Source: a virus (taxonomy: Duplodnaviria > Caudoviricetes). Taken from it: a DNA stretch of 64,000 nucleotides. Every line of letters starts with the position of its first letter. The stretch's first letter is position 1. The stretch covers positions 139,369 to 203,368 of IMG/VR virus record IMGVR_UViG_3300030117_007612. One strand, given 5' to 3'. Shown one piece after another: positions 19,544-51,263 of this stretch. The notes beneath the pieces were generated by a model. That model searched no databases. It saw nothing but the letters and a program-made list of their open reading frames with translations, and had not been told where the DNA came from. The translations under genes and the position numbers were made by a program.

Positions 19544-20926
19544 ATGAAAGAGCAGGCTAGCTTCTCAAAATTTGGCACTTCTTTCCAAGAAGGGTTATGT
19601 CAACTTATATTCGAAGATCGACCGTTCGCAGATCAAATCATGGAAGTTTTGGATATCAATTTCCTTGAATTGGAGTATCTTCGGGTATTCGTCAGCAAGT
19701 TGTTTACGTATCGTGCAAAGTACAATCTTCATCCCGTCGCGGATACCATTGAAACAATCCTACAGACGGAATTGGAAAGTGAAAACGAGGTTACAAGACA
19801 ACAGGCGATCGAGTACTTTGCTAAGATTCAAGAGAGCGGCTTACATGATTCGGAATACATCAAAGATACCGCTCTGGATTTTTGCCGAAAGCAAAAATTA
19901 AAGGAGGCAATGCTACGTTCCGTTAATTTGCTTAAAAAGTCGTCTTTTGATGAGATATCGAAAGTAATCAATGAAGCCCTAATTTTGGGTTCTGATACTA
20001 ATTTTGGATATGATTATCTTGTCGATTTTGAGGAGAGATTCAAACCCAAGTTCAGAAACCCCGTTACAACTGGCTGGGACGAGATTGATTCCATCTGTGG
20101 GGGTGGCCTAGGGAAGAATGAATTGGGCGTAGTCATAGCCCCTACAGGCGCCGGCAAAAGCATGGTTCTTGTACACCTTGGCGCTCAAGCGGTGCTTCAA
20201 GGTAAGACTGTGATTCATTATACTTTAGAATTGCAAGATTCTGTAATCGCCAAAAGATACGATAGTTGCATAGTTGGGTACCCTCTTGGCGAATTGAGCA
20301 ATTTTAAAGATGAGATTTTTGAAAACATCAAGGACATATCAGGACAGTTGATTATCAAAGAATACCCAACCAAGAGCGCCAGCACTAATACTATAAAATC
20401 ACATCTATCGTCACTCATGAAGCGGGGCATTCAGCCCGGCATGATTATTGTTGATTACGGCGACTTGTTGCGGCCAGTTTCAATTCAAAAAGAAAAGAGA
20501 AACGAACTGGAAACAATTTACGAAGAACTACGTTGTATTGCTGGTGAATTTCAATGCCCTGTTTGGACCGCCTCTCAAACAAATCGCTCAGGCCTGAATG
20601 CCGAGGTAATAACAATGGAGTCAATTTCAGAAGCGTTTAATAAATGCTTTGTTGCCGATTTTATTTTCTCTGTATCGAGAACTATTGACGATAAAAGAGC
20701 AAATACTGGAAGAATTTTTATTGCTAAAAATAGGAATGGGCCTGACGGTGTCACATATCCAATATTTATGGACACAAGTGTTGTAAAAATTAAAGTCCTT
20801 TCAGAGAACAATAATGTAATTACATCTACGAACAATCAAACTGAAATAACTGCTGCTCCGCCATTGAGTGCGAAAGAGCAATCAGAATTATTAAAGAAGA
20901 AATACGCAAACTTTAGGAGGAAATAG
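19544..20926 (+). CDS. Replicative DNA helicase (DnaB/gp41 family)
   Basis: Walker A APTGAGKS, VDYGDL, WTASQTNR, KNRNGPDG. Confidence 0.93.
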   Translation: MKEQASFSKFGTSFQEGLCQLIFEDRPFADQIMEVLDINFLELEYLRVFVSKLFTYRAKYNLHPVADTIETILQTELESENEVTRQQAIEYFAKIQESGLHDSEYIKDTALDFCRKQKLKEAMLRSVNLLKKSSFDEISKVINEALILGSDTNFGYDYLVDFEERFKPKFRNPVTTGWDEIDSICGGGLGKNELGVVIAPTGAGKSMVLVHLGAQAVLQGKTVIHYTLELQDSVIAKRYDSCIVGYPLGELSNFKDEIFENIKDISGQLIIKEYPTKSASTNTIKSHLSSLMKRGIQPGMIIVDYGDLLRPVSIQKEKRNELETIYEELRCIAGEFQCPVWTASQTNRSGLNAEVITMESISEAFNKCFVADFIFSVSRTIDDKRANTGRIFIAKNRNGPDGVTYPIFMDTSVVKIKVLSENNNVITSTNNQTEITAAPPLSAKEQSELLKKKYANFRRK

Positions 20927-20927
20927 T

Positions 20928-22910
20928 ATGAATCTTGGTACCATAGAATCGGCGACTATTCGCCGCTTTCGTTTATCAGAAAGCTTTATTGAACAGTATA
21001 AGGAGAAAGAAGTCCCATGGGGACCCTTGGGGTATGTTACGTTTAAAAGGACGTATTCTCGCCGCTTGAGTGAATTTGATCCTGATACTTCTGGAACGGA
21101 AGAGTGGTACCAAACATGCCGACGCGTTATCGAGGGGATGTTCACTGTACAAAAGCAGCACGTGCGAACTTTAGGTCTTGAGTGGAACGATGCGAAAGCA
21201 CAAAAAACCGCCAAAGATGCATATGACAGGCTTTTTACTTTGAAGTGGACCCCTCCCGGCCGCGGCCTGTGGATGATGGGCACCAAATTTATTGAGGAAA
21301 GAACCGGCGCCGCATTGTTTAACTGTGCTTTTAGATCGACGAAGGATATAGCTACAAAGGGCGGGTACCTTTTTGCATGGATTATGGATGCCTTGATGGT
21401 GGGGATAGGTGTAGGCTTCGACACCAAGGGCGCTGACTCAGCAATTATCAAAGAGCCAGAATGGACAAGCGAACTGCACACAATCCCAGACAGCCGAGAA
21501 GGCTGGGTAGAGTCGGTCAGAATGCTGTTGGATGGCTTTTACTTTGGTGCTAAAGTGCCACAATTTGATTATTCTGCCATTAGGCCGTTCGGCGCGCCAA
21601 TCCGCGGCTTTGGTGGAACCTCAAGCGGTCATGGCCCCCTGAAAGAACTCCATGAGTCACTAACAGAACTATACAACTCTAGAGTTGGCCAGCCTATCAC
21701 TTCAACAGATCTGGTTGACACGCAAAACCTTATTGGCCGTTGCGTTGTGTCTGGCAATGTGCGCCGATCGGCCGCACTGGCCATTGGCAGTCATGATGAC
21801 ATGCAATATCTCATGATGAAGAACGATCAGGAGAAACTATATCACCATCGATGGAACTCAAACAACTCCTTCCACGCAAAAGTGGGGATGGACTATACTT
21901 GGCATGCAGAGCAAAGTCAAATCAATGGTGAGCCGGGCTATATTTGGCTAGACAACGCCAGAACTCGCGGAAGATTTAAGGACGGCACAAAATACGATGA
22001 TATTAACGTGGTTGGCTTCAATCCATGTGTTGAGCAACAATTAGAAGATGCTGAATTGTGTTGTTTGGTTGAGACTTATCCTGCAAAACATGAGGATTAT
22101 GATGATTACCTTAAGACGCTCAAGATCGCCTATCTTTATGGCAAAACTGTAACGCTAATCAACACTCACTGGCCAGAGACAAATGCGATCATGTTGAAAA
22201 ACCGAAGAATCGGATTGTCTCAGTCGGGTGTTGTTCAGGCATTTAATAAGTTCGGCCGCCGTGAAATTTTAAATTGGTGCGATAACGCCTATGATCACAT
22301 TCGCGACTTGGATAAAGAATATTCTAACTGGCTGTGTGTTCCAAGATCGATCAGGATGACTAGCATTAAACCTTCGGGCACTGTTTCCCTGTTGAATGGG
22401 TCGACCCCGGGGATTCACTTTCCTGAAAATGAATATTATATTAGACGAATTAGATTTGGAAAAGATTCAGATTTACTTGACAATTTGAAAGAAGCCGGCT
22501 ATACTATTGAAAATGATGAGTATTCTCCGAATACCGTCTGCGTGGAGTTTCCAGTGCATGAGCCATACTACGTAAAAGGTAAAAGGGATGTTTCCTTGTG
22601 GGAGCAGCTTGAAATTGCAGCACAATACCAACACTATTGGGCCGACAACTCCGTTTCAATTACTGTGACATTTAAGCCTGAAGAGGCACATAATATAAAA
22701 GAGGCACTTGAAATGTATGAGACAAGACTAAAGGCTGTATCGTTCTTGAAATATGAAGAAACGGGATACAAACAGGCGCCATATGAGCCAATTAGCAAGG
22801 AACTTTATGATAAGATGGTGAGTAGAATTAAGCCAATTAGTAGAGTTGATACCGATCAAGGCGGCGTTGGTTCCAAATTTTGCACAAATGATTCGTGCAC
22901 GATAATGTGA
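20928..22910 (+). CDS. nrdJ: Class II (B12-dependent) ribonucleotide reductase, monomeric RTPR type
   Basis: PPGRGLW, GNVRRSA, NPCVEQ.L, LCCLVE, IKPSGTVS, C-terminal FCTNDSC. Confidence 0.93.
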   Translation: MNLGTIESATIRRFRLSESFIEQYKEKEVPWGPLGYVTFKRTYSRRLSEFDPDTSGTEEWYQTCRRVIEGMFTVQKQHVRTLGLEWNDAKAQKTAKDAYDRLFTLKWTPPGRGLWMMGTKFIEERTGAALFNCAFRSTKDIATKGGYLFAWIMDALMVGIGVGFDTKGADSAIIKEPEWTSELHTIPDSREGWVESVRMLLDGFYFGAKVPQFDYSAIRPFGAPIRGFGGTSSGHGPLKELHESLTELYNSRVGQPITSTDLVDTQNLIGRCVVSGNVRRSAALAIGSHDDMQYLMMKNDQEKLYHHRWNSNNSFHAKVGMDYTWHAEQSQINGEPGYIWLDNARTRGRFKDGTKYDDINVVGFNPCVEQQLEDAELCCLVETYPAKHEDYDDYLKTLKIAYLYGKTVTLINTHWPETNAIMLKNRRIGLSQSGVVQAFNKFGRREILNWCDNAYDHIRDLDKEYSNWLCVPRSIRMTSIKPSGTVSLLNGSTPGIHFPENEYYIRRIRFGKDSDLLDNLKEAGYTIENDEYSPNTVCVEFPVHEPYYVKGKRDVSLWEQLEIAAQYQHYWADNSVSITVTFKPEEAHNIKEALEMYETRLKAVSFLKYEETGYKQAPYEPISKELYDKMVSRIKPISRVDTDQGGVGSKFCTNDSCTIM

Positions 22911-37242: not shown

Positions 37243-38814
37243 GTGCCACAAGTAAAATATGATAATGAGGAATCTCTACAAAAAAAGATTCTCGAAGGCG
37301 CAAACGTTCTTGCAGATAACGTTGCTGCCACCCTAGGTCCTCGCGGCCGAAACGTAATTCTACAAGAGAAGAACAAGGCACCGTTCATCACAAAAGATGG
37401 AGTTACTGTTGCCAAATTCGTGTTCTTTGATGATTTGATTACGAATTCAGGCGCACAAATTATTAAACAAGCGGCCATTAAAACCAATTCTGATGCCGGT
37501 GATGGTACTACGACATCAACCGTAATTACACGCTCTTTGTTGAACAATGCTCAAAAGTATATTACATCCGGTGTTTCTCCAATTGAACTCAAGCGTGGCA
37601 TGGATCTCGCTAGTCACGCCATTTGCGATCGATTGACTGAGCTATCTCAACCCATAAAGAGCGTTAATGACATTTCGCACATTGCAACTATTTCCGCCAA
37701 CAATGATAAATCAATCGGCGATTTGGTCGCCATGGCAGTCGATCGTGTTGGTAAGGATGGCTCCGTAACCATTCAAGAGGCCAGAGCCGTCGAGACAACT
37801 TTGGATATTGCCGAAGGCTTCAATTTCGATGCCGGGTACTGTGCTGGTGCGTTTGTTACCGACGAACGCAGAGGGGTGATGAGTTATGTAGATCCGCTCA
37901 TACTCGTCACGGATGCTAAAATCTCAACGGTCGAACAGATTTTGCCAACCCTTGAGTTGATTTCGCGTGAAGGCCGGCCCCTAATTATAGTGGCCGAAGA
38001 CATTGAGGGTCAGGCATTGGCCGCGCTAATTATGAATGCAATGCGTGGCACTCTACAGGTTGCTGCGATTAAGGCTCCGCGCTACGGCGAAGAGCGCAGA
38101 AACATTCTGAGCGATTTGGCGTTGTCTGTGAATGCGGAATTTATCACAAGAGAGTCCGGTATCAAGCTAAGTGAAGTTAAACTAAAGCATTTCGGATCTG
38201 CTGATAGCATTGAATCAACAAAATATAATACTACAATCGTAGGTGCAAATAGCGATCATGTCAAGGTCGATGAAAGAATCCAAATCTTAAAAAAAGAACT
38301 AAACGAGACCGAATCAATTCATGAGTGCGAGGCAATTCAAGACAGAATCACAAGATTGGCATCAGGCGTGGCGGTAATTTATGTTGGCGCTCACACTGAA
38401 ATTGAGATGATTGAAAAGAAACACAGAATTGAAGATGCTCTGGAGGCAGTTAAGTCTGCTCAAGCCGAGGGCGTTGTTTCTGGTGGTGGCACTGCGCTCA
38501 TTCGCGCATGTAAAGATCTAGACATCGAAGTAGAGAACGAAGAGCAGCGGCTTGGCGTTAATATCGTGCTGGAGTCGGCCTTTAGTCCGATCCGTCAGAT
38601 GGCAGCTAATGCTGGCGAATCGGCTGATTTAATTATTAAGGAAATTGAAGTATCGGATGTTGAATCTGGTTATGATTTCCGAAGCAGGAAAATGGTAAAC
38701 ATGGTTGAGTCGGGGATTATTGATCCGGTCAAGGTTACAAGGTGCGCACTGCAAAATGCAATTTCAGTTGCCGGCACACTAATCACGACAAACCACGCCA
38801 TTGTTCAAGTGTAG
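37243..38814 (+). CDS. groEL: Chaperonin GroEL
   Basis: TLGPRGRNV, ITKDGVTVAK, AGDGTTT, ATISAN, GVVSGGGTAL, IIDPVKVTR. Confidence 0.97.
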   Translation: MPQVKYDNEESLQKKILEGANVLADNVAATLGPRGRNVILQEKNKAPFITKDGVTVAKFVFFDDLITNSGAQIIKQAAIKTNSDAGDGTTTSTVITRSLLNNAQKYITSGVSPIELKRGMDLASHAICDRLTELSQPIKSVNDISHIATISANNDKSIGDLVAMAVDRVGKDGSVTIQEARAVETTLDIAEGFNFDAGYCAGAFVTDERRGVMSYVDPLILVTDAKISTVEQILPTLELISREGRPLIIVAEDIEGQALAALIMNAMRGTLQVAAIKAPRYGEERRNILSDLALSVNAEFITRESGIKLSEVKLKHFGSADSIESTKYNTTIVGANSDHVKVDERIQILKKELNETESIHECEAIQDRITRLASGVAVIYVGAHTEIEMIEKKHRIEDALEAVKSAQAEGVVSGGGTALIRACKDLDIEVENEEQRLGVNIVLESAFSPIRQMAANAGESADLIIKEIEVSDVESGYDFRSRKMVNMVESGIIDPVKVTRCALQNAISVAGTLITTNHAIVQV

Positions 38815-47035: not shown

Positions 47036-47965
47036 ATGAACGATGTCATATGGGATGATTTCTTAACAACAATTGATGAAATATCCAAATATCAAAAGAG
47101 GGTGAGAAAGGGACATAAAAAAAAGAAAGCCATGTATGTATCTGGTGGTAAACAAAAAAATACCCCACCTTTTACAAAGCGAGCTAGCACAAGTAGATCT
47201 AAGAGCGCGCCCGGCGGTTTTGGGGCGCTTGAGGAAGTTGCGCCTGAAGACGTGACCGTCGACGGATTTGACACGCAGGACGAACTGGCGCCATCTCTGT
47301 GGGATAATAAAAAGCTACTCCCTGAAGTTAGGGAAAGGCTCTTACAGATAGCACAAGACTTTATTGATAGCCTTGAAATGGGAATAAATATAATCGATGT
47401 GAGACTAACTGGCTCATTAGCCAACTATAACTGGTCAAAATATTCTGATGTTGATTTACACATTGTTGTTGACTTTGCGACAATTGATGATAACACTGAA
47501 ATCGTGAAGGGCTTCTTTGACGCTAAAAGAGTTAATTGGAACTACTCGCATGAGATTATGATTGATCAATATGAAGTTGAAATATATGTTGAAGATGATG
47601 ATGAAGATCATATCTCAACCGGCATCTATTCGGTCACCAACGACAAGTGGACGATTGAGCCCGGCCCTAGCGAACAGATTTTTGAAATTGACGAGGGAAA
47701 TGTTAAGAAAAAAGCAGCATCGATAATGACGCAGATCGAATTTGCCGAAGATGAGATGGAGGAAGATCCCAAAAAAGCATACGAAATGTCAGACCGACTG
47801 AAAGAGAAGATCAGAAACATGCGCGCTAGCGGATTGAAAACTTCACAGGGTCAGTATTCAATAGAAAACGTAGCCTTCAAGGTTCTGAGACGCACAGACT
47901 ACCTTCAGAGATTGTCTGATTTAAAAACAAAGTCGTACGATAAAATGATGTCGATGGAGCAATGA
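47036..47965 (+). CDS. Pol-beta-superfamily nucleotidyltransferase
   Basis: LTGSLANYNWSKYSDVDLHIVVD, VEIYVED. Confidence 0.8.
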   Translation: MNDVIWDDFLTTIDEISKYQKRVRKGHKKKKAMYVSGGKQKNTPPFTKRASTSRSKSAPGGFGALEEVAPEDVTVDGFDTQDELAPSLWDNKKLLPEVRERLLQIAQDFIDSLEMGINIIDVRLTGSLANYNWSKYSDVDLHIVVDFATIDDNTEIVKGFFDAKRVNWNYSHEIMIDQYEVEIYVEDDDEDHISTGIYSVTNDKWTIEPGPSEQIFEIDEGNVKKKAASIMTQIEFAEDEMEEDPKKAYEMSDRLKEKIRNMRASGLKTSQGQYSIENVAFKVLRRTDYLQRLSDLKTKSYDKMMSMEQ

Positions 47966-48677: not shown

Positions 48678-48770
48678 ATGAGCAAACTTAAACAGTGGGC
48701 CATAAAAGTATTTGAATGGTTGCGGGGTTTTGAAAATCCTCGTGATCGATTCCGACGTGGGGATAAATGA
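48678..48770 (+). CDS. Small hypothetical protein (30 aa)
   Basis: AAGGAG SD; MSKLKQWAIKVFEWLRGFENPRDRFRRGDK; ATGA overlap with mgtC. Confidence 0.5.
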   Translation: MSKLKQWAIKVFEWLRGFENPRDRFRRGDK

Positions 48771-49447
48771 TTGACACGGCTGCATTTGGAGTTAATGCAT
48801 TGGTTGCGCTCGGATTGAGCGCAGCGGTTGGGATTGAGCGGGAAATTCACAGCCAGCCCGCAGGTCTTCGCACTCATATTATTCTTGGTATGGGTGCGTG
48901 CCTTGCATCGGCGCTATCAATATCGTTCTCCCACGACTTTTCATCGCCACAATTTCAGAGCGATCCGGCACGAATTGTTGCACAAGTCGTGAGCGGTGTT
49001 GGTTTTTTGGGCGCTGGAGCAATTATGCGTTTTGGCGTTAACGTCAAAGGAATCACCACTGCTTCATCACTGTGGACAACAGCCATTATTGGCATCGCAT
49101 GCGGCGCAGGCTATCACGCGGCCGCAACGATAATTACAGGATTTGTTCTGTTCGCATTGGAAGTTATTAGCCGACCCGTTCGTTGGCTCTTTAAGCCTAA
49201 AAGAGTGAGAGAGTTGAAGGTGCGGTTAAACGATCGCCCTCGTATCCTCAATGATTTGCGAACCATTCTGGAATCAAAGAAGGTTAAAATTATTTCAATC
49301 TCTACGCACATCAAAGATAAGAGAAAACTTGAACTTGATTTGATTATTCAGTTGCCAAGCGACTTGCAACTTGATACATTAATTAATGTTCTAAATACAA
49401 TCCAAGACGATGAATTTTCAATGTTTATCGGAAAAGAGGAAACATAG
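48767..49447 (+). CDS. mgtC: MgtC/SapB family membrane protein
   Basis: GIERE...PAGLRTH, DPARIVAQVVSGVGFLGAGAI, GITTASSLWTTA.IG.ACG. Confidence 0.92.
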   Translation: MIDTAAFGVNALVALGLSAAVGIEREIHSQPAGLRTHIILGMGACLASALSISFSHDFSSPQFQSDPARIVAQVVSGVGFLGAGAIMRFGVNVKGITTASSLWTTAIIGIACGAGYHAAATIITGFVLFALEVISRPVRWLFKPKRVRELKVRLNDRPRILNDLRTILESKKVKIISISTHIKDKRKLELDLIIQLPSDLQLDTLINVLNTIQDDEFSMFIGKEET

Positions 49448-49523
49448 GGCTCTTAGCTCAGTTGGTCAGAGCACCCGGCTCATAACCGGATGGTCCTCGG
49501 TTCAAGCCCGAGAGAGCCCACCA
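49447..49523 (+). tRNA. tRNA with CAT anticodon (Ile2-like, or elongator Met)
   Basis: Acceptor GGGCTCT/AGAGCCC, GGCTCATAACC anticodon arm typical of tRNA-Ile2, encoded CCA; G1 paired so not an initiator. Confidence 0.9.
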
Positions 49524-51025: not shown

Positions 51026-51038
51026 TCAACCCCCGAAT

Positions 51039-51120
51039 GGGGGTGTATCTCCGCCGTCTTATAAGCGGTGCATTGTGGAGTAACTGGTGCATGCGGGTTC
51101 AAGTCCCGTCGCCCCTACCA
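51039..51120 (+). tRNA. Non-canonical tRNA-like RNA, anticodon TAT, lacking a D-arm
   Basis: Acceptor GGGGGTG/CGCCCCT + A + CCA; GCCGT-CTTATAA-GCGGT; T arm GCGGG-TTCAAGT-CCCGT; only 7 nt between acceptor and anticodon stems; 23-nt extra arm. Confidence 0.75.
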
Positions 51121-51263
51121 TATCAGCATGTGTGATGCTGACCCTGCATGCAAGGGAAATTAATGGTTGCAAACATTGGAATCACTACGGAGGATACGGC
51201 ACTTCGGAAATCATGGGCAAGGAGACCCCTTGTCAACGCCGCAATTTACTACTGGAGAACAAG

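What the first reader, a model, noticed from the sequence alone, without database searches (positions are those of the whole stretch)
51039..51120. D-armless tRNA(UAU)-like gene with a D-loop-like element placed after the anticodon arm
Seen: a fully paired 7-bp acceptor stem (two G-T pairs), A discriminator and CCA, a canonical T arm (TTCAAGT) and a canonical anticodon arm (CT-TAT-AA). Only 7 nt (TATCTCC, 51046-51052) lie where the ~19-nt D region should be. A 23-nt extra arm (51070-51092) can form GCATTG/TGGTGC and contains GGAGTAACTGGT, which resembles a D-loop. CTCC in the short linker is complementary to GGAG in that loop, so a pseudoknot could rebuild a D-stem equivalent. Established: D-armless tRNAs are mainly known from animal mitochondria, and bacteria normally read AUA with lysidine-modified tRNA-Ile2 rather than a UAU anticodon. 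Inference: a re-wired tRNA that reads AUA without TilS, escapes anticodon nucleases, or acts as a decoy.
Basis: partly seen in the sequence, partly recalled or inferred. Interest (0 to 1): 0.8.

Follow-up and report, generated by a model that had tools for sequence, protein, structure and literature searches.

The report
Rewired phage isoleucine tRNA (UAU)
This 82-base phage gene is a conserved transfer RNA for the isoleucine codon AUA whose D-arm is not missing but rebuilt from two pieces on either side of the anticodon arm, a non-cloverleaf layout that tRNA finders miss and that I could not find in any paper.

Summary
It has a 7-bp acceptor stem, a 7-nt linker, a canonical anticodon arm (UAU), a 23-nt region holding a D-loop-like motif, a canonical T arm, discriminator A and CCA. 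ARAGORN misses it, and the Rfam tRNA model gives 27.3 bits against a threshold of 29.

It is not a decayed gene. The same layout recurs in more than 200 viral contigs and 270 cultured-phage records, usually inside tRNA arrays.

The linker triplet pairs with the triplet just 5' of TAAYTGG (here CTCC with GGAG). Covariation for this pairing is strong: 18 triplet combinations, and 97-98% of cells paired against 12-39% in slid controls. A second 3-bp helix (GCA:UGC) covaries within the UAU class, so the fold is a pseudoknot.

Three features vary with the anticodon or co-vary as in normal tRNAs. The base after GG is A in every Arg-anticodon member and U or C in all but one Ile member. The discriminator is A in all Ile members. 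The R15:Y48 positions co-vary.

The phage uses AUA for 27% of its Ile codons.

Most likely this is a working tRNA-Ile(UAU). Expression and charging were not tested. The scan found this family before on other DNA.

The parts
51039..51045 (+). Acceptor stem, 5' strand (GGGGGTG).
   Evidence: Pairs with 51110-51116. This helix is 97-99% paired with changes on both sides at all 7 pairs across the family.
51046..51048 (+). U8, A9 and U10. I read them as the equivalents of U8, A21 and position 22 of a normal tRNA.
   Evidence: T8 and A9 are invariant and T10 is at least 90% conserved in 69 family members. The role assignment is inference.
51049..51052 (+). Stem A, 5' strand (CTCC). This is one strand of the rebuilt D stem.
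   Evidence: C51049-G51080, T51050-A51079, C51051-G51078 and C51052-G51077. The three core pairs are 96.6% and 98.2% paired with many compensatory changes. The fourth pair forms only in some members.
51053..51069 (+). Anticodon arm: 5-bp stem and loop CTTATAA, with anticodon TAT (UAU) at 51060-51062.
   Evidence: C32, U33, A37 and A38 are conserved in the family.
51070..51072 (+). Stem B, 5' strand (GCA).
   Evidence: Pairs with TGC at 51088-51090. It covaries within the UAU class as GCA:TGC, CCA:TGG, GGA:TCC and GCG:TGC.
51073..51076 (+). Spacer (TTGT).
   Evidence: Its length and sequence vary among homologs, from 4 to 12 nt.
51077..51080 (+). Stem A, 3' strand (GGAG). This is the other strand of the rebuilt D stem.
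   Evidence: The nearest relatives have TGGG opposite CCCA instead, which is a change on both sides.
51081..51088 (+). D-loop equivalent TAACTGG plus T. I read it as U13, A14, A15, C16, U17, G18, G19 and U20.
   Evidence: TAAYTGG is conserved. R15 co-varies with the base before the T stem: A:T in 66 members and G:C in 3. The base after GG tracks the anticodon class.
51088..51090 (+). Stem B, 3' strand (TGC).
   Evidence: pair 33:70 is CG in 17 and GC in 3; pair 32:71 is GC in 16 and CG in 6.
51091..51092 (+). AT before the T stem. The T is the position-48 equivalent.
   Evidence: At least 90% conserved. Co-varies with R15.
51093..51109 (+). T arm: 5-bp stem and loop TTCAAGT.
   Evidence: In the grammar-parsed set, TTCAA occurs in 18 of 24 UAU-class members and in none of the 38 UCU-class members.
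51110..51120 (+). Acceptor stem 3' strand (CGCCCCT), discriminator A (51117) and encoded CCA (51118-51120).
   Evidence: The discriminator is A in 25 of 25 and in 52 of 52 Ile-anticodon members.
49447..49523 (+). Canonical tRNA with anticodon CAT. It is probably a lysidine-type tRNA-Ile2 and so a second AUA decoder.
   Evidence: ARAGORN and Rfam call it. Its best E. coli matches are annotated tRNA-Ile and carry a CAT anticodon.

Best explanation
The element is a phage gene for a working tRNA-Ile with anticodon UAU. It supplies decoding of AUA, a codon this 42%-GC, 203-kb phage uses heavily.

It belongs to a large, almost purely viral family of Arg and Ile tRNAs that are not cloverleaves. [quoted passage not shown] The D stem, however, is formed between the 7-nt linker (CUC, here CUCC) and a triplet lying after the anticodon arm (GAG, here GGAG). 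That triplet is followed directly by a D-loop equivalent (U-A14-A15-Y-U-G18-G19-N20).

In effect, segment 10-20 of a normal tRNA (one D-stem strand plus the D loop) sits in the variable region. The rebuilt D stem therefore closes around the anticodon arm. It can still stack on that arm and still present GG to the T loop, giving an L shape.

In the UAU class, a further 3-bp helix (GCA:UGC) joins the start and the end of this region and makes the fold a pseudoknot.

**Shown:** conservation, covariation of both helices, and class-specific identity features.

**Inferred:** the three-dimensional arrangement, expression, processing, charging by host IleRS and decoding of AUA.
For: **1. The same architecture recurs widely.**
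- It is found in 49, 101 and at least 118 viral contigs by three pattern scans.
- The UCU class is in 270 cultured-phage records.
- 48 of 69 members lie within 500 nt of a canonical tRNA, often 2-11 nt away.

**2. Stem A covaries.**
- On a MAFFT alignment, 96.6% of cells pair, against 74.4% in shuffles (0 of 500 reach the observed value) and 12-39% when the partner is slid.
- On a second set of 57 distinct sequences, 98.2% pair. Pair 13:50 is CG 27, GC 13, UA 13, AU 2.
- There are 18 triplet combinations in that set.
- The nearest relatives of the window gene carry CCCA:TGGG where the window has CTCC:GGAG.

**3. Stem B covaries in the UAU class**.

**4. The motif behaves as a D loop.**
- The R15 and N48 equivalents co-vary: A:T in 66 members, G:C in 3, none mixed.
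- In the second set they are A:T in 55 members, with one A:C exception.

**5. Identity features track the anticodon.**
- The base after GG is A in 44 of 44 Arg-anticodon members. A20 is a known identity element for bacterial arginyl-tRNA synthetase (established knowledge).
- The base after GG is T or C in 25 of 25 Ile-anticodon members, and T in 51 of 52 in the second set.
- The discriminator is A in every Ile-anticodon member.

**6. The ends and loop are tRNA-like.** The anticodon loop is canonical, the acceptor/T stack is 7/5, and CCA is encoded.

**7. Genome context fits.**
- ATA is 27% of Ile codons, 17.8 per 1000 codons.
- The phage's other tRNAs also read A-ending codons: AGA, UUA and AAA.
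- The gene is co-oriented with its neighbours in a gap of about 190 nt.
Against: - No expression, processing, aminoacylation or decoding data exist for this gene.
- RNAalifold predicts only the three canonical stems, not stem A.
- The whole-molecule z-score is only -0.8.
- Stem A is only 3-4 bp.
- E. coli-type IleRS is reported to charge UAU-anticodon tRNA-Ile poorly (my recollection of work on Mycoplasma mobile; not checked here). The host is unknown.
- The phage probably already has a tRNA-Ile2(CAU), so this gene may be redundant.
- In this genome the gene is 1.5 kb from the nearest tRNA rather than inside an array.
- The acceptor, anticodon and T-stem pairing in my first alignment was imposed by my own filter.
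Confidence: 0.66

Rival explanations
1. It is a conserved tRNA-like RNA that is not used for decoding. It could be a decoy or sponge for a host tRNA-targeting nuclease or a modification enzyme. It could also be a processing or regulatory element that mimics a tRNA.
For: - The non-cloverleaf core could impair binding to synthetases, EF-Tu or the ribosome.
- Many UCU-class members have acceptor helices extended to 13-20 bp and no CCA (seen), which is unusual for a tRNA gene.
- The phage probably already carries another AUA decoder.
- No functional data exist.
Against: - A decoy would not need synthetase identity elements that switch with the anticodon, yet the base after GG and the discriminator do so.
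- The family is restricted to a few anticodons that match heavily used phage codons.
- The 7/5 acceptor/T stack, the canonical anticodon loop and the encoded CCA are all kept.
Confidence: 0.2
2. It is a working tRNA, but the rewiring changes its meaning. It could be charged with an amino acid other than Ile, or read AUG as well as AUA.
For: - A UAU anticodon with unmodified or unusually modified U34 can also read AUG (general knowledge).
- The Ile and Arg classes of the family are similar overall. A UAU-class member aligns at about 80% identity over 93% of its length with UCU-class genes, so anticodon switching has happened in this lineage.
Against: - UAU-class members lack the A after GG that marks the Arg classes.
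- They have discriminator A and mostly a TTCAA T loop like the tRNA-Ile2-type gene.
- Nothing in the phage's reading frames needed a non-standard code.
Confidence: 0.08
3. It is a decayed tRNA pseudogene or an assembly deletion that removed the D arm.
For: ARAGORN does not call it and Rfam scores it below threshold.
Against: - The same layout is present in hundreds of independent contigs and isolates.
- All helices show compensatory changes, and the motifs are invariant.
- An independent contig (L044) carries the identical gene.
Confidence: 0.02

Closest known systems
Canonical bacterial and phage tRNA-Ile (Rfam RF00005), in particular AUA decoders: lysidine tRNA-Ile2(CAU) and the rare tRNA-Ile(UAU) of Mycoplasma mobile and a few other bacteria
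   Same: A 7-bp acceptor stem, a 5-bp T stem with a GTTCAAGT-type loop, an anticodon loop of C-U-NNN-A-A, discriminator A, CCA, and equivalents of U8, A14, R15:Y48 and G18G19.
   Different: There is no D hairpin between positions 10 and 25. One D-stem strand and the D loop lie after the anticodon arm, so the D stem encloses the anticodon arm. In this class a pseudoknot also forms. It scores below the Rfam threshold and ARAGORN misses it.
D-armless mitochondrial tRNA-Ser(AGY/UCU) of animals (reviewed in PMC4013460 and PMC7609411)
   Same: Only a short connector lies between the acceptor and anticodon stems.
   Different: Mitochondrial D-armless tRNAs have lost the D stem and the GG/T-loop elbow, are flexible, and use adapted factors. 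Here the D stem and D loop are kept and conserved, the T loop is canonical, and the RNA must work with bacterial machinery.
allo-tRNAs and (8/4) or (9/3) tRNAs, including allo-tRNA(UAU) (Mukai et al., PMC5389517)
   Same: Non-standard bacterial and phage tRNAs found by metagenome mining, with UAU among the frequent anticodons and a long variable region.
   Different: allo-tRNAs have an 8/4 or 9/3 acceptor/T stack and a normal, long D stem-loop with a tetraloop. This gene has a 7/5 stack and no D hairpin.
Circularly permuted tRNA genes of Cyanidioschyzon merolae (PMC3978253)
   Same: The order of tRNA segments along the gene differs from the standard one.
   Different: Those genes are processed through a circular intermediate into a normal cloverleaf tRNA. 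Here both acceptor strands are at the ends of the gene and no processing could restore the normal order, so the mature RNA itself must be rewired.
The same rewired phage tRNA family as noted earlier in this scan on other genomes (Arg UCU, ACG, CCU and UCG, Ile UAU and Tyr GUA classes)
   Same: Same linker, same D-loop motif after the anticodon arm, and same covarying long-range helix. The UAU class was noted on two other genomes.
   Different: In this member stem A is CUCC:GGAG, where its nearest relatives have CCCA:UGGG. It also stands alone in an intergenic gap rather than inside a tRNA array.

Membership tests
Canonical tRNA (Rfam RF00005; ARAGORN model) | Score at or above the Rfam gathering threshold of 29 bits, and a call by ARAGORN. 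| tested here: not met
   It scores 27.3 bits with the D arm deleted. It is absent at the gathering threshold. ARAGORN does not call it and calls only 5 of 69 family members.
Canonical tRNA (Rfam RF00005; ARAGORN model) | A D arm that is a local hairpin between positions 10 and 25. | tested here: not met
   Only 7 nt lie between the acceptor and anticodon stems. The partner strand lies 3' of the anticodon arm.
Canonical tRNA (Rfam RF00005; ARAGORN model) | Acceptor stem of 7 bp, anticodon arm of 5 bp with a 7-nt loop, T arm of 5 bp with a GTTCRA loop, discriminator and CCA. | tested here: met
   All three stems covary in the family.
Canonical tRNA (Rfam RF00005; ARAGORN model) | Aminoacylation and decoding on the ribosome. 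| not testable with these tools
   Only indirect evidence: identity features that switch with the anticodon and codon usage.
   It scores 78.6 bits, E = 1.7e-21. The window sequence was in the training alignment, but the identical layout is seen in independent contigs.
Mitochondrial-type D-armless tRNA | Loss of both the D stem and the D-loop/T-loop interaction motifs. | tested here: not met
   The GG motif, the R15:Y48 co-variation and a canonical T loop are all conserved.
allo-tRNA and (8/4) or (9/3) tRNA | An 8/4 or 9/3 acceptor/T stack with a long D stem and tetraloop. | tested here: not met
   The stack is 7/5 and there is no D hairpin. The family definition was read in PMC5389517.
tRNA-Ile identity (bacterial IleRS substrates) | Discriminator A73, an NAU anticodon with A37 and A38, a C29-G41 pair and a U12-A23 pair (identity set recalled from the E. 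coli literature). | tested here: inconclusive
   A73, UAU, A37, A38, C29-G41 (C51055-G51067) and a U-A pair in the middle of stem A (T51050-A51079) are all present. Whether IleRS accepts U34 and the rewired core cannot be tested here.

The most novel reading that the evidence does not exclude
Phages have evolved and spread a second, non-cloverleaf tRNA architecture that the bacterial translation machinery accepts. Its altered core would make these tRNAs poor substrates for host enzymes that recognise the normal D-arm region, such as tRNA-cleaving defence nucleases. The UAU member would also give the phage AUA decoding that does not depend on host TilS.
Probability: 0.2. Interest if true: 0.92.

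Novelty: new variant of a known kind. Interest (0 to 1): 0.78.

Why it matters
Outside animal mitochondria, tRNAs are taken to be cloverleaves without exception. Gene finders, covariance models and structural accounts of synthetases, RNase P, EF-Tu and the ribosome all build on that.

A large phage family in which the D stem is made from distant strands, and closes around the anticodon arm, would show that the L shape can be reached by a different chain topology. It would also mean that tRNA inventories of phages are systematically incomplete: ARAGORN missed 64 of 69 members here.

It also gives a natural test case for which core contacts the bacterial translation machinery really needs. For this phage it points to a dedicated supply of the AUA decoder.

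Tried and rejected
- **Phage identity.** Megablast of the surrounding 2.2 kb against cultured phages gave no match. So did tblastn of the upstream 382-aa ORF. The phage has no close cultured relative and the host stays unknown. An RNR gene gave only matches of 46% identity or less.
- **Neighbouring ORFs.** The two flanking ORFs have no Pfam or PHROG hit.
- **UAU class in cultured phages.** BLAST with three different UAU-class members found no UAU-class gene in the cultured-phage collection. Only the UCU class is represented there.
- **Bacterial genomes.** My pattern was too loose.
- **Model R1.** It was built with a structure string shifted by one column and was discarded. R2 replaces it.
- **Thermodynamic prediction.** Single-sequence energies cannot choose between them.
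- **Promoters and terminators.** Promoter-like sites are no more frequent than in shuffles. One weak site ends 13 nt before the gene. No terminator-like site follows it.
- **Phage-encoded helpers.** No phage-encoded TilS, class-II CCA-adding enzyme or IleRS was found.
- **Literature.** Eight searches found no description of this layout, including one for the conserved motif as a literal string. The library lacks most subscription journals, so this is not proof of absence.
- **Readings rejected.**
  - Pseudogene.
  - Assembly artefact.
  - Mitochondrial-type D-armless tRNA.
  - allo-tRNA.
  - Permuted gene restored by processing.

Full report
**What is in the sequence.**

Window 51039-51120(+) reads, in order:
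- acceptor 5' strand GGGGGTG
- linker TATCTCC
- anticodon arm GCCGT / CTTATAA / GCGGT
- a 23-nt region, GCATTGTGGAGTAACTGGTGCAT
- T arm GCGGG / TTCAAGT / CCCGT
- acceptor 3' strand CGCCCCT
- discriminator A and CCA

ARAGORN finds three ordinary tRNAs in the window but not this one. The Rfam tRNA model aligns it with the D arm deleted and a long insertion, at 27.3 bits against a threshold of 29. No other Rfam family matches.

The gene lies between the stop of a 382-aa ORF (51025) and the next ORF, whose first in-frame ATG is at 51213. It is on the same strand as nearly all genes of this genome.

**It is a family, not a wreck.**

A sensitive BLAST against cultured phages found unannotated sequences with the same layout and a UCU anticodon in Asteriusvirus and Vequintavirinae phages.

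Three pattern scans of viral metagenome contigs returned 49, 101 and at least 118 stretches. The second scan left the linker and its partner triplet unconstrained. The third left the region after the anticodon arm unconstrained.

A simple grammar parse gave 69 distinct members with a 7-nt linker. Their anticodons were:

| Anticodon | Members |
|---|---|
| UCU | 38 |
| UAU | 24 |
| ACG | 3 |
| CCU | 2 |
| UCG | 1 |
| GAU | 1 |

All of these are Arg or Ile anticodons.

A covariance model built from them (R2) scores the window gene at 78.6 bits, against 28 bits or less for the window's normal tRNAs. The same model found 73 hits (57 distinct) in the loci of the second scan. These include a 77-nt UAU subclass that my grammar had missed.

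The UCU class occurs in 270 cultured-phage records, including Felixounavirus, phi92-like, rV5-like, Asteriusvirus, Klebsiella and Streptomyces phages. Nearly all are unannotated, and a few are labelled 'tRNA-OTHER'.

Of 80 bacterial-genome loci returned by a loose pattern, only two (both metagenome-assembled genomes) are real members.

Members sit in tRNA arrays. 48 of 69 are within 500 nt of a canonical tRNA, often 2-11 nt away. ARAGORN calls only 5 of 69.

**Secondary structure.**

*Stem A.* On the MAFFT alignment A1, linker positions 4-6 pair with the three bases immediately 5' of the conserved TAAYTGG.
- 96.6% of cells pair, against 74.4% in shuffles (0 of 500 reach the observed value) and 12-39% when the partner is slid by 1-3 columns.
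- The middle pair is UA 43, CG 12, GC 11, AU 2 and UG 1, with none unpaired.
- On the second set (A2), the helix is 98.2% paired with 18 different triplet combinations. A2 was fitted to the model, but flanking invariant motifs anchor its register.
- In the window the helix is CTCC:GGAG. The closest relatives of this gene share its anticodon arm, stem B and T arm but carry CCCA:TGGG, which is a change on both sides at two pairs.
- The fourth pair is not general: it is unpaired in 54 of 69 members.

*Stem B.* A second short helix joins the first three bases after the anticodon arm to the three bases after GG. In the window it is GCA:TGC. It covaries within the UAU class as CCA:TGG, GGA:TCC and GCG:TGC. 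The common UCU class does not have it.

Its inner three pairs are G-U or U-G pairs with the conserved GG and never change on both sides.

*Limits of the thermodynamic methods.* They do not help:
- RNAalifold predicts only the three canonical stems.
- The two alternative folds differ by 0.3 kcal/mol.
- The single-sequence z-score is -0.8.

The case for stem A therefore rests on covariation.

**What the rewiring amounts to (inference).**

The linker U-A-U-C-U-C-N closely resembles the canonical 8-14 segment. The partner triplet is followed by U-A-A-Y-U-G-G, which matches 13-A14-R15-Y16-Y17-G18-G19.

Two observations show that this is more than a likeness:
- The second purine of the motif co-varies with the base just before the T stem, exactly as the R15:Y48 pair does in normal tRNAs. 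It is A:T in 66 members and G:C in 3, with none mixed. The second set has 55 A:T and one A:C exception.
- The base after GG behaves as position 20 (see the next section).

I therefore read the molecule as a tRNA in which segment 10-20 (one D-stem strand plus the D loop) lies in the variable region. On this reading the linker supplies U8, an A21 equivalent and the other D-stem strand.

The D stem then continues the anticodon stem as in a normal tRNA. It contributes 3-4 layers plus a U-U or A-U layer, but it closes around the anticodon arm instead of forming its own hairpin. How stem B fits in three dimensions I cannot say.

**Identity.**

- The base after GG is A in all 44 Arg-anticodon members. 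A20 is the classic D-loop identity element of bacterial ArgRS (established knowledge).
- That base is T or C in all 25 Ile-anticodon members, and T in 51 of 52 in the second set.
- The discriminator is A in every Ile-anticodon member and is variable in the Arg classes.
- The T loop is TTCAA in 18 of 24 UAU members and in none of the 38 UCU members.

Features that switch with the anticodon are what synthetase recognition predicts. They are hard to explain for a decoy.

**Genome context.**

The window is the last 64 kb of a 203,368-bp viral record with 42% GC. This is the record's only member of the family.

ARAGORN finds these RNA genes in the record:
- a tmRNA
- canonical tRNAs Arg(UCU), Asn and Gly, near 31 kb
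- tRNAs Leu(UAA), Lys(UUU) and a CAU tRNA, in the window

The CAU tRNA best matches E. coli prophage genes annotated tRNA-Ile with a CAT anticodon. It is therefore probably a lysidine-type tRNA-Ile2.

In 150 long ORFs, ATA is 27% of Ile codons (17.8 per 1000 codons) and AGA is 40% of Arg codons. No phage TilS, IleRS or CCA-adding enzyme of the PolyA_pol family was found, so the RNA would depend on host enzymes.

**Comparison with what is known.**

- **Mitochondrial D-armless tRNA:** it is not one, because those have lost the elbow motifs.
- **allo-tRNA:** it is not one, because those have an 8/4 or 9/3 stack and a normal long D stem.
- **Permuted gene:** it is not one, because both acceptor strands are at the ends of the gene, so processing could not restore the normal order.

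Eight literature searches, one of them for the motif as a literal string, found no description. The library misses most subscription journals.

The scan's own notes show that other agents met this family on other genomes and read it the same way. One later check priced the 'working rewired tRNA' claim at about 55%. I reached my reading before opening those notes and tested it on my own alignments.

**Verdict.**

The functional ideas of decoy and nuclease escape remain untested.

The best explanation is a working, rewired tRNA-Ile(UAU) for AUA. I put this at about two in three, because expression, charging and decoding are inferred and not shown.

Noticed in passing
window 49447-49523 (+): The tRNA that ARAGORN calls Met(CAT) best matches E. 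coli prophage genes annotated tRNA-Ile with a CAT anticodon (81.7% identity over 92%). It is probably a lysidine-type tRNA-Ile2, so the phage may carry two different AUA decoders 1.5 kb apart.
   Followed up: partly
window 48767-49447 (+): A 226-aa MgtC-family protein with a C-terminal ACT domain (Pfam E = 7e-36) is encoded between the tRNA genes. Its ORF ends where the CAU tRNA begins.
   Followed up: no
window 47036-47965 (+): A 309-aa ORF just upstream of the tRNA cluster has weak nucleotidyltransferase-fold hits below the Pfam cut-offs (NTP_transf_2, MTPAP-like) and matches PHROG 36119, of unknown function. It could be an RNA-end-modifying enzyme.
   Followed up: no
G000:C1:26533-26865 (outside the window): The phage genome encodes a tmRNA, with tag peptide ANNNLHFEQRLAA by ARAGORN, about 5 kb upstream of a second small tRNA cluster (Arg UCU, Asn, Gly).
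   Followed up: no
window 51030-51043 and 51123-51156 (+): The 5' leader CCCCC-GAAT pairs with the first five G of the tRNA, an alternative hairpin that competes with the acceptor stem. Two hairpins (TCAGCAT/ATGCTGA and CCCT/AGGG) follow directly after the CCA. None has a T tract.
   Followed up: no
L008, L026, L013, L003, L002, L010, L018 (UCU-class loci; flanks printed): Many UCU-class members have no CCA. Their 5' and 3' flanks are complementary, which extends the acceptor helix to 13-20 bp. This is unusual for tRNA genes and implies a different 3'-end processing route, or another role for the precursor.
   Followed up: no
A2 rows such as L120:3124-3200, L054:513-589 and L098:5695-5771: A 77-nt UAU subclass has a fixed A-GAAA spacer and a U-U mismatch at the top of the anticodon stem; the pair equivalent to 27:43 is unpaired in 37 of 57 sequences. 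The bases after GG (TTAC or TGAC) seem able to pair with the end of the anticodon stem.
   Followed up: partly
L003:1601-1960 and several rows: HNH endonuclease genes lie directly beside or over UCU-class members in cultured phages (Salmonella phage SSBI34 and several Felixounavirus records). This suggests homing endonucleases that target this gene or its flank.
   Followed up: no
L253:4746-4822 and L265:1630-1706: Two metagenome-assembled bacterial genomes (Blastocatellia, Omnitrophota) carry family members at 72.8 and 66.8 bits. I did not check whether these are prophages, mis-binned phage contigs or true cellular genes.
   Followed up: no
window 37243-38814, 20928-22910 and 19544-20926 (+): The phage encodes a GroEL-like chaperonin, a ribonucleotide reductase (at most 46% identical to any cultured-phage homolog) and a DnaB-like helicase. 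No close cultured relative of this phage was found.
   Followed up: partly
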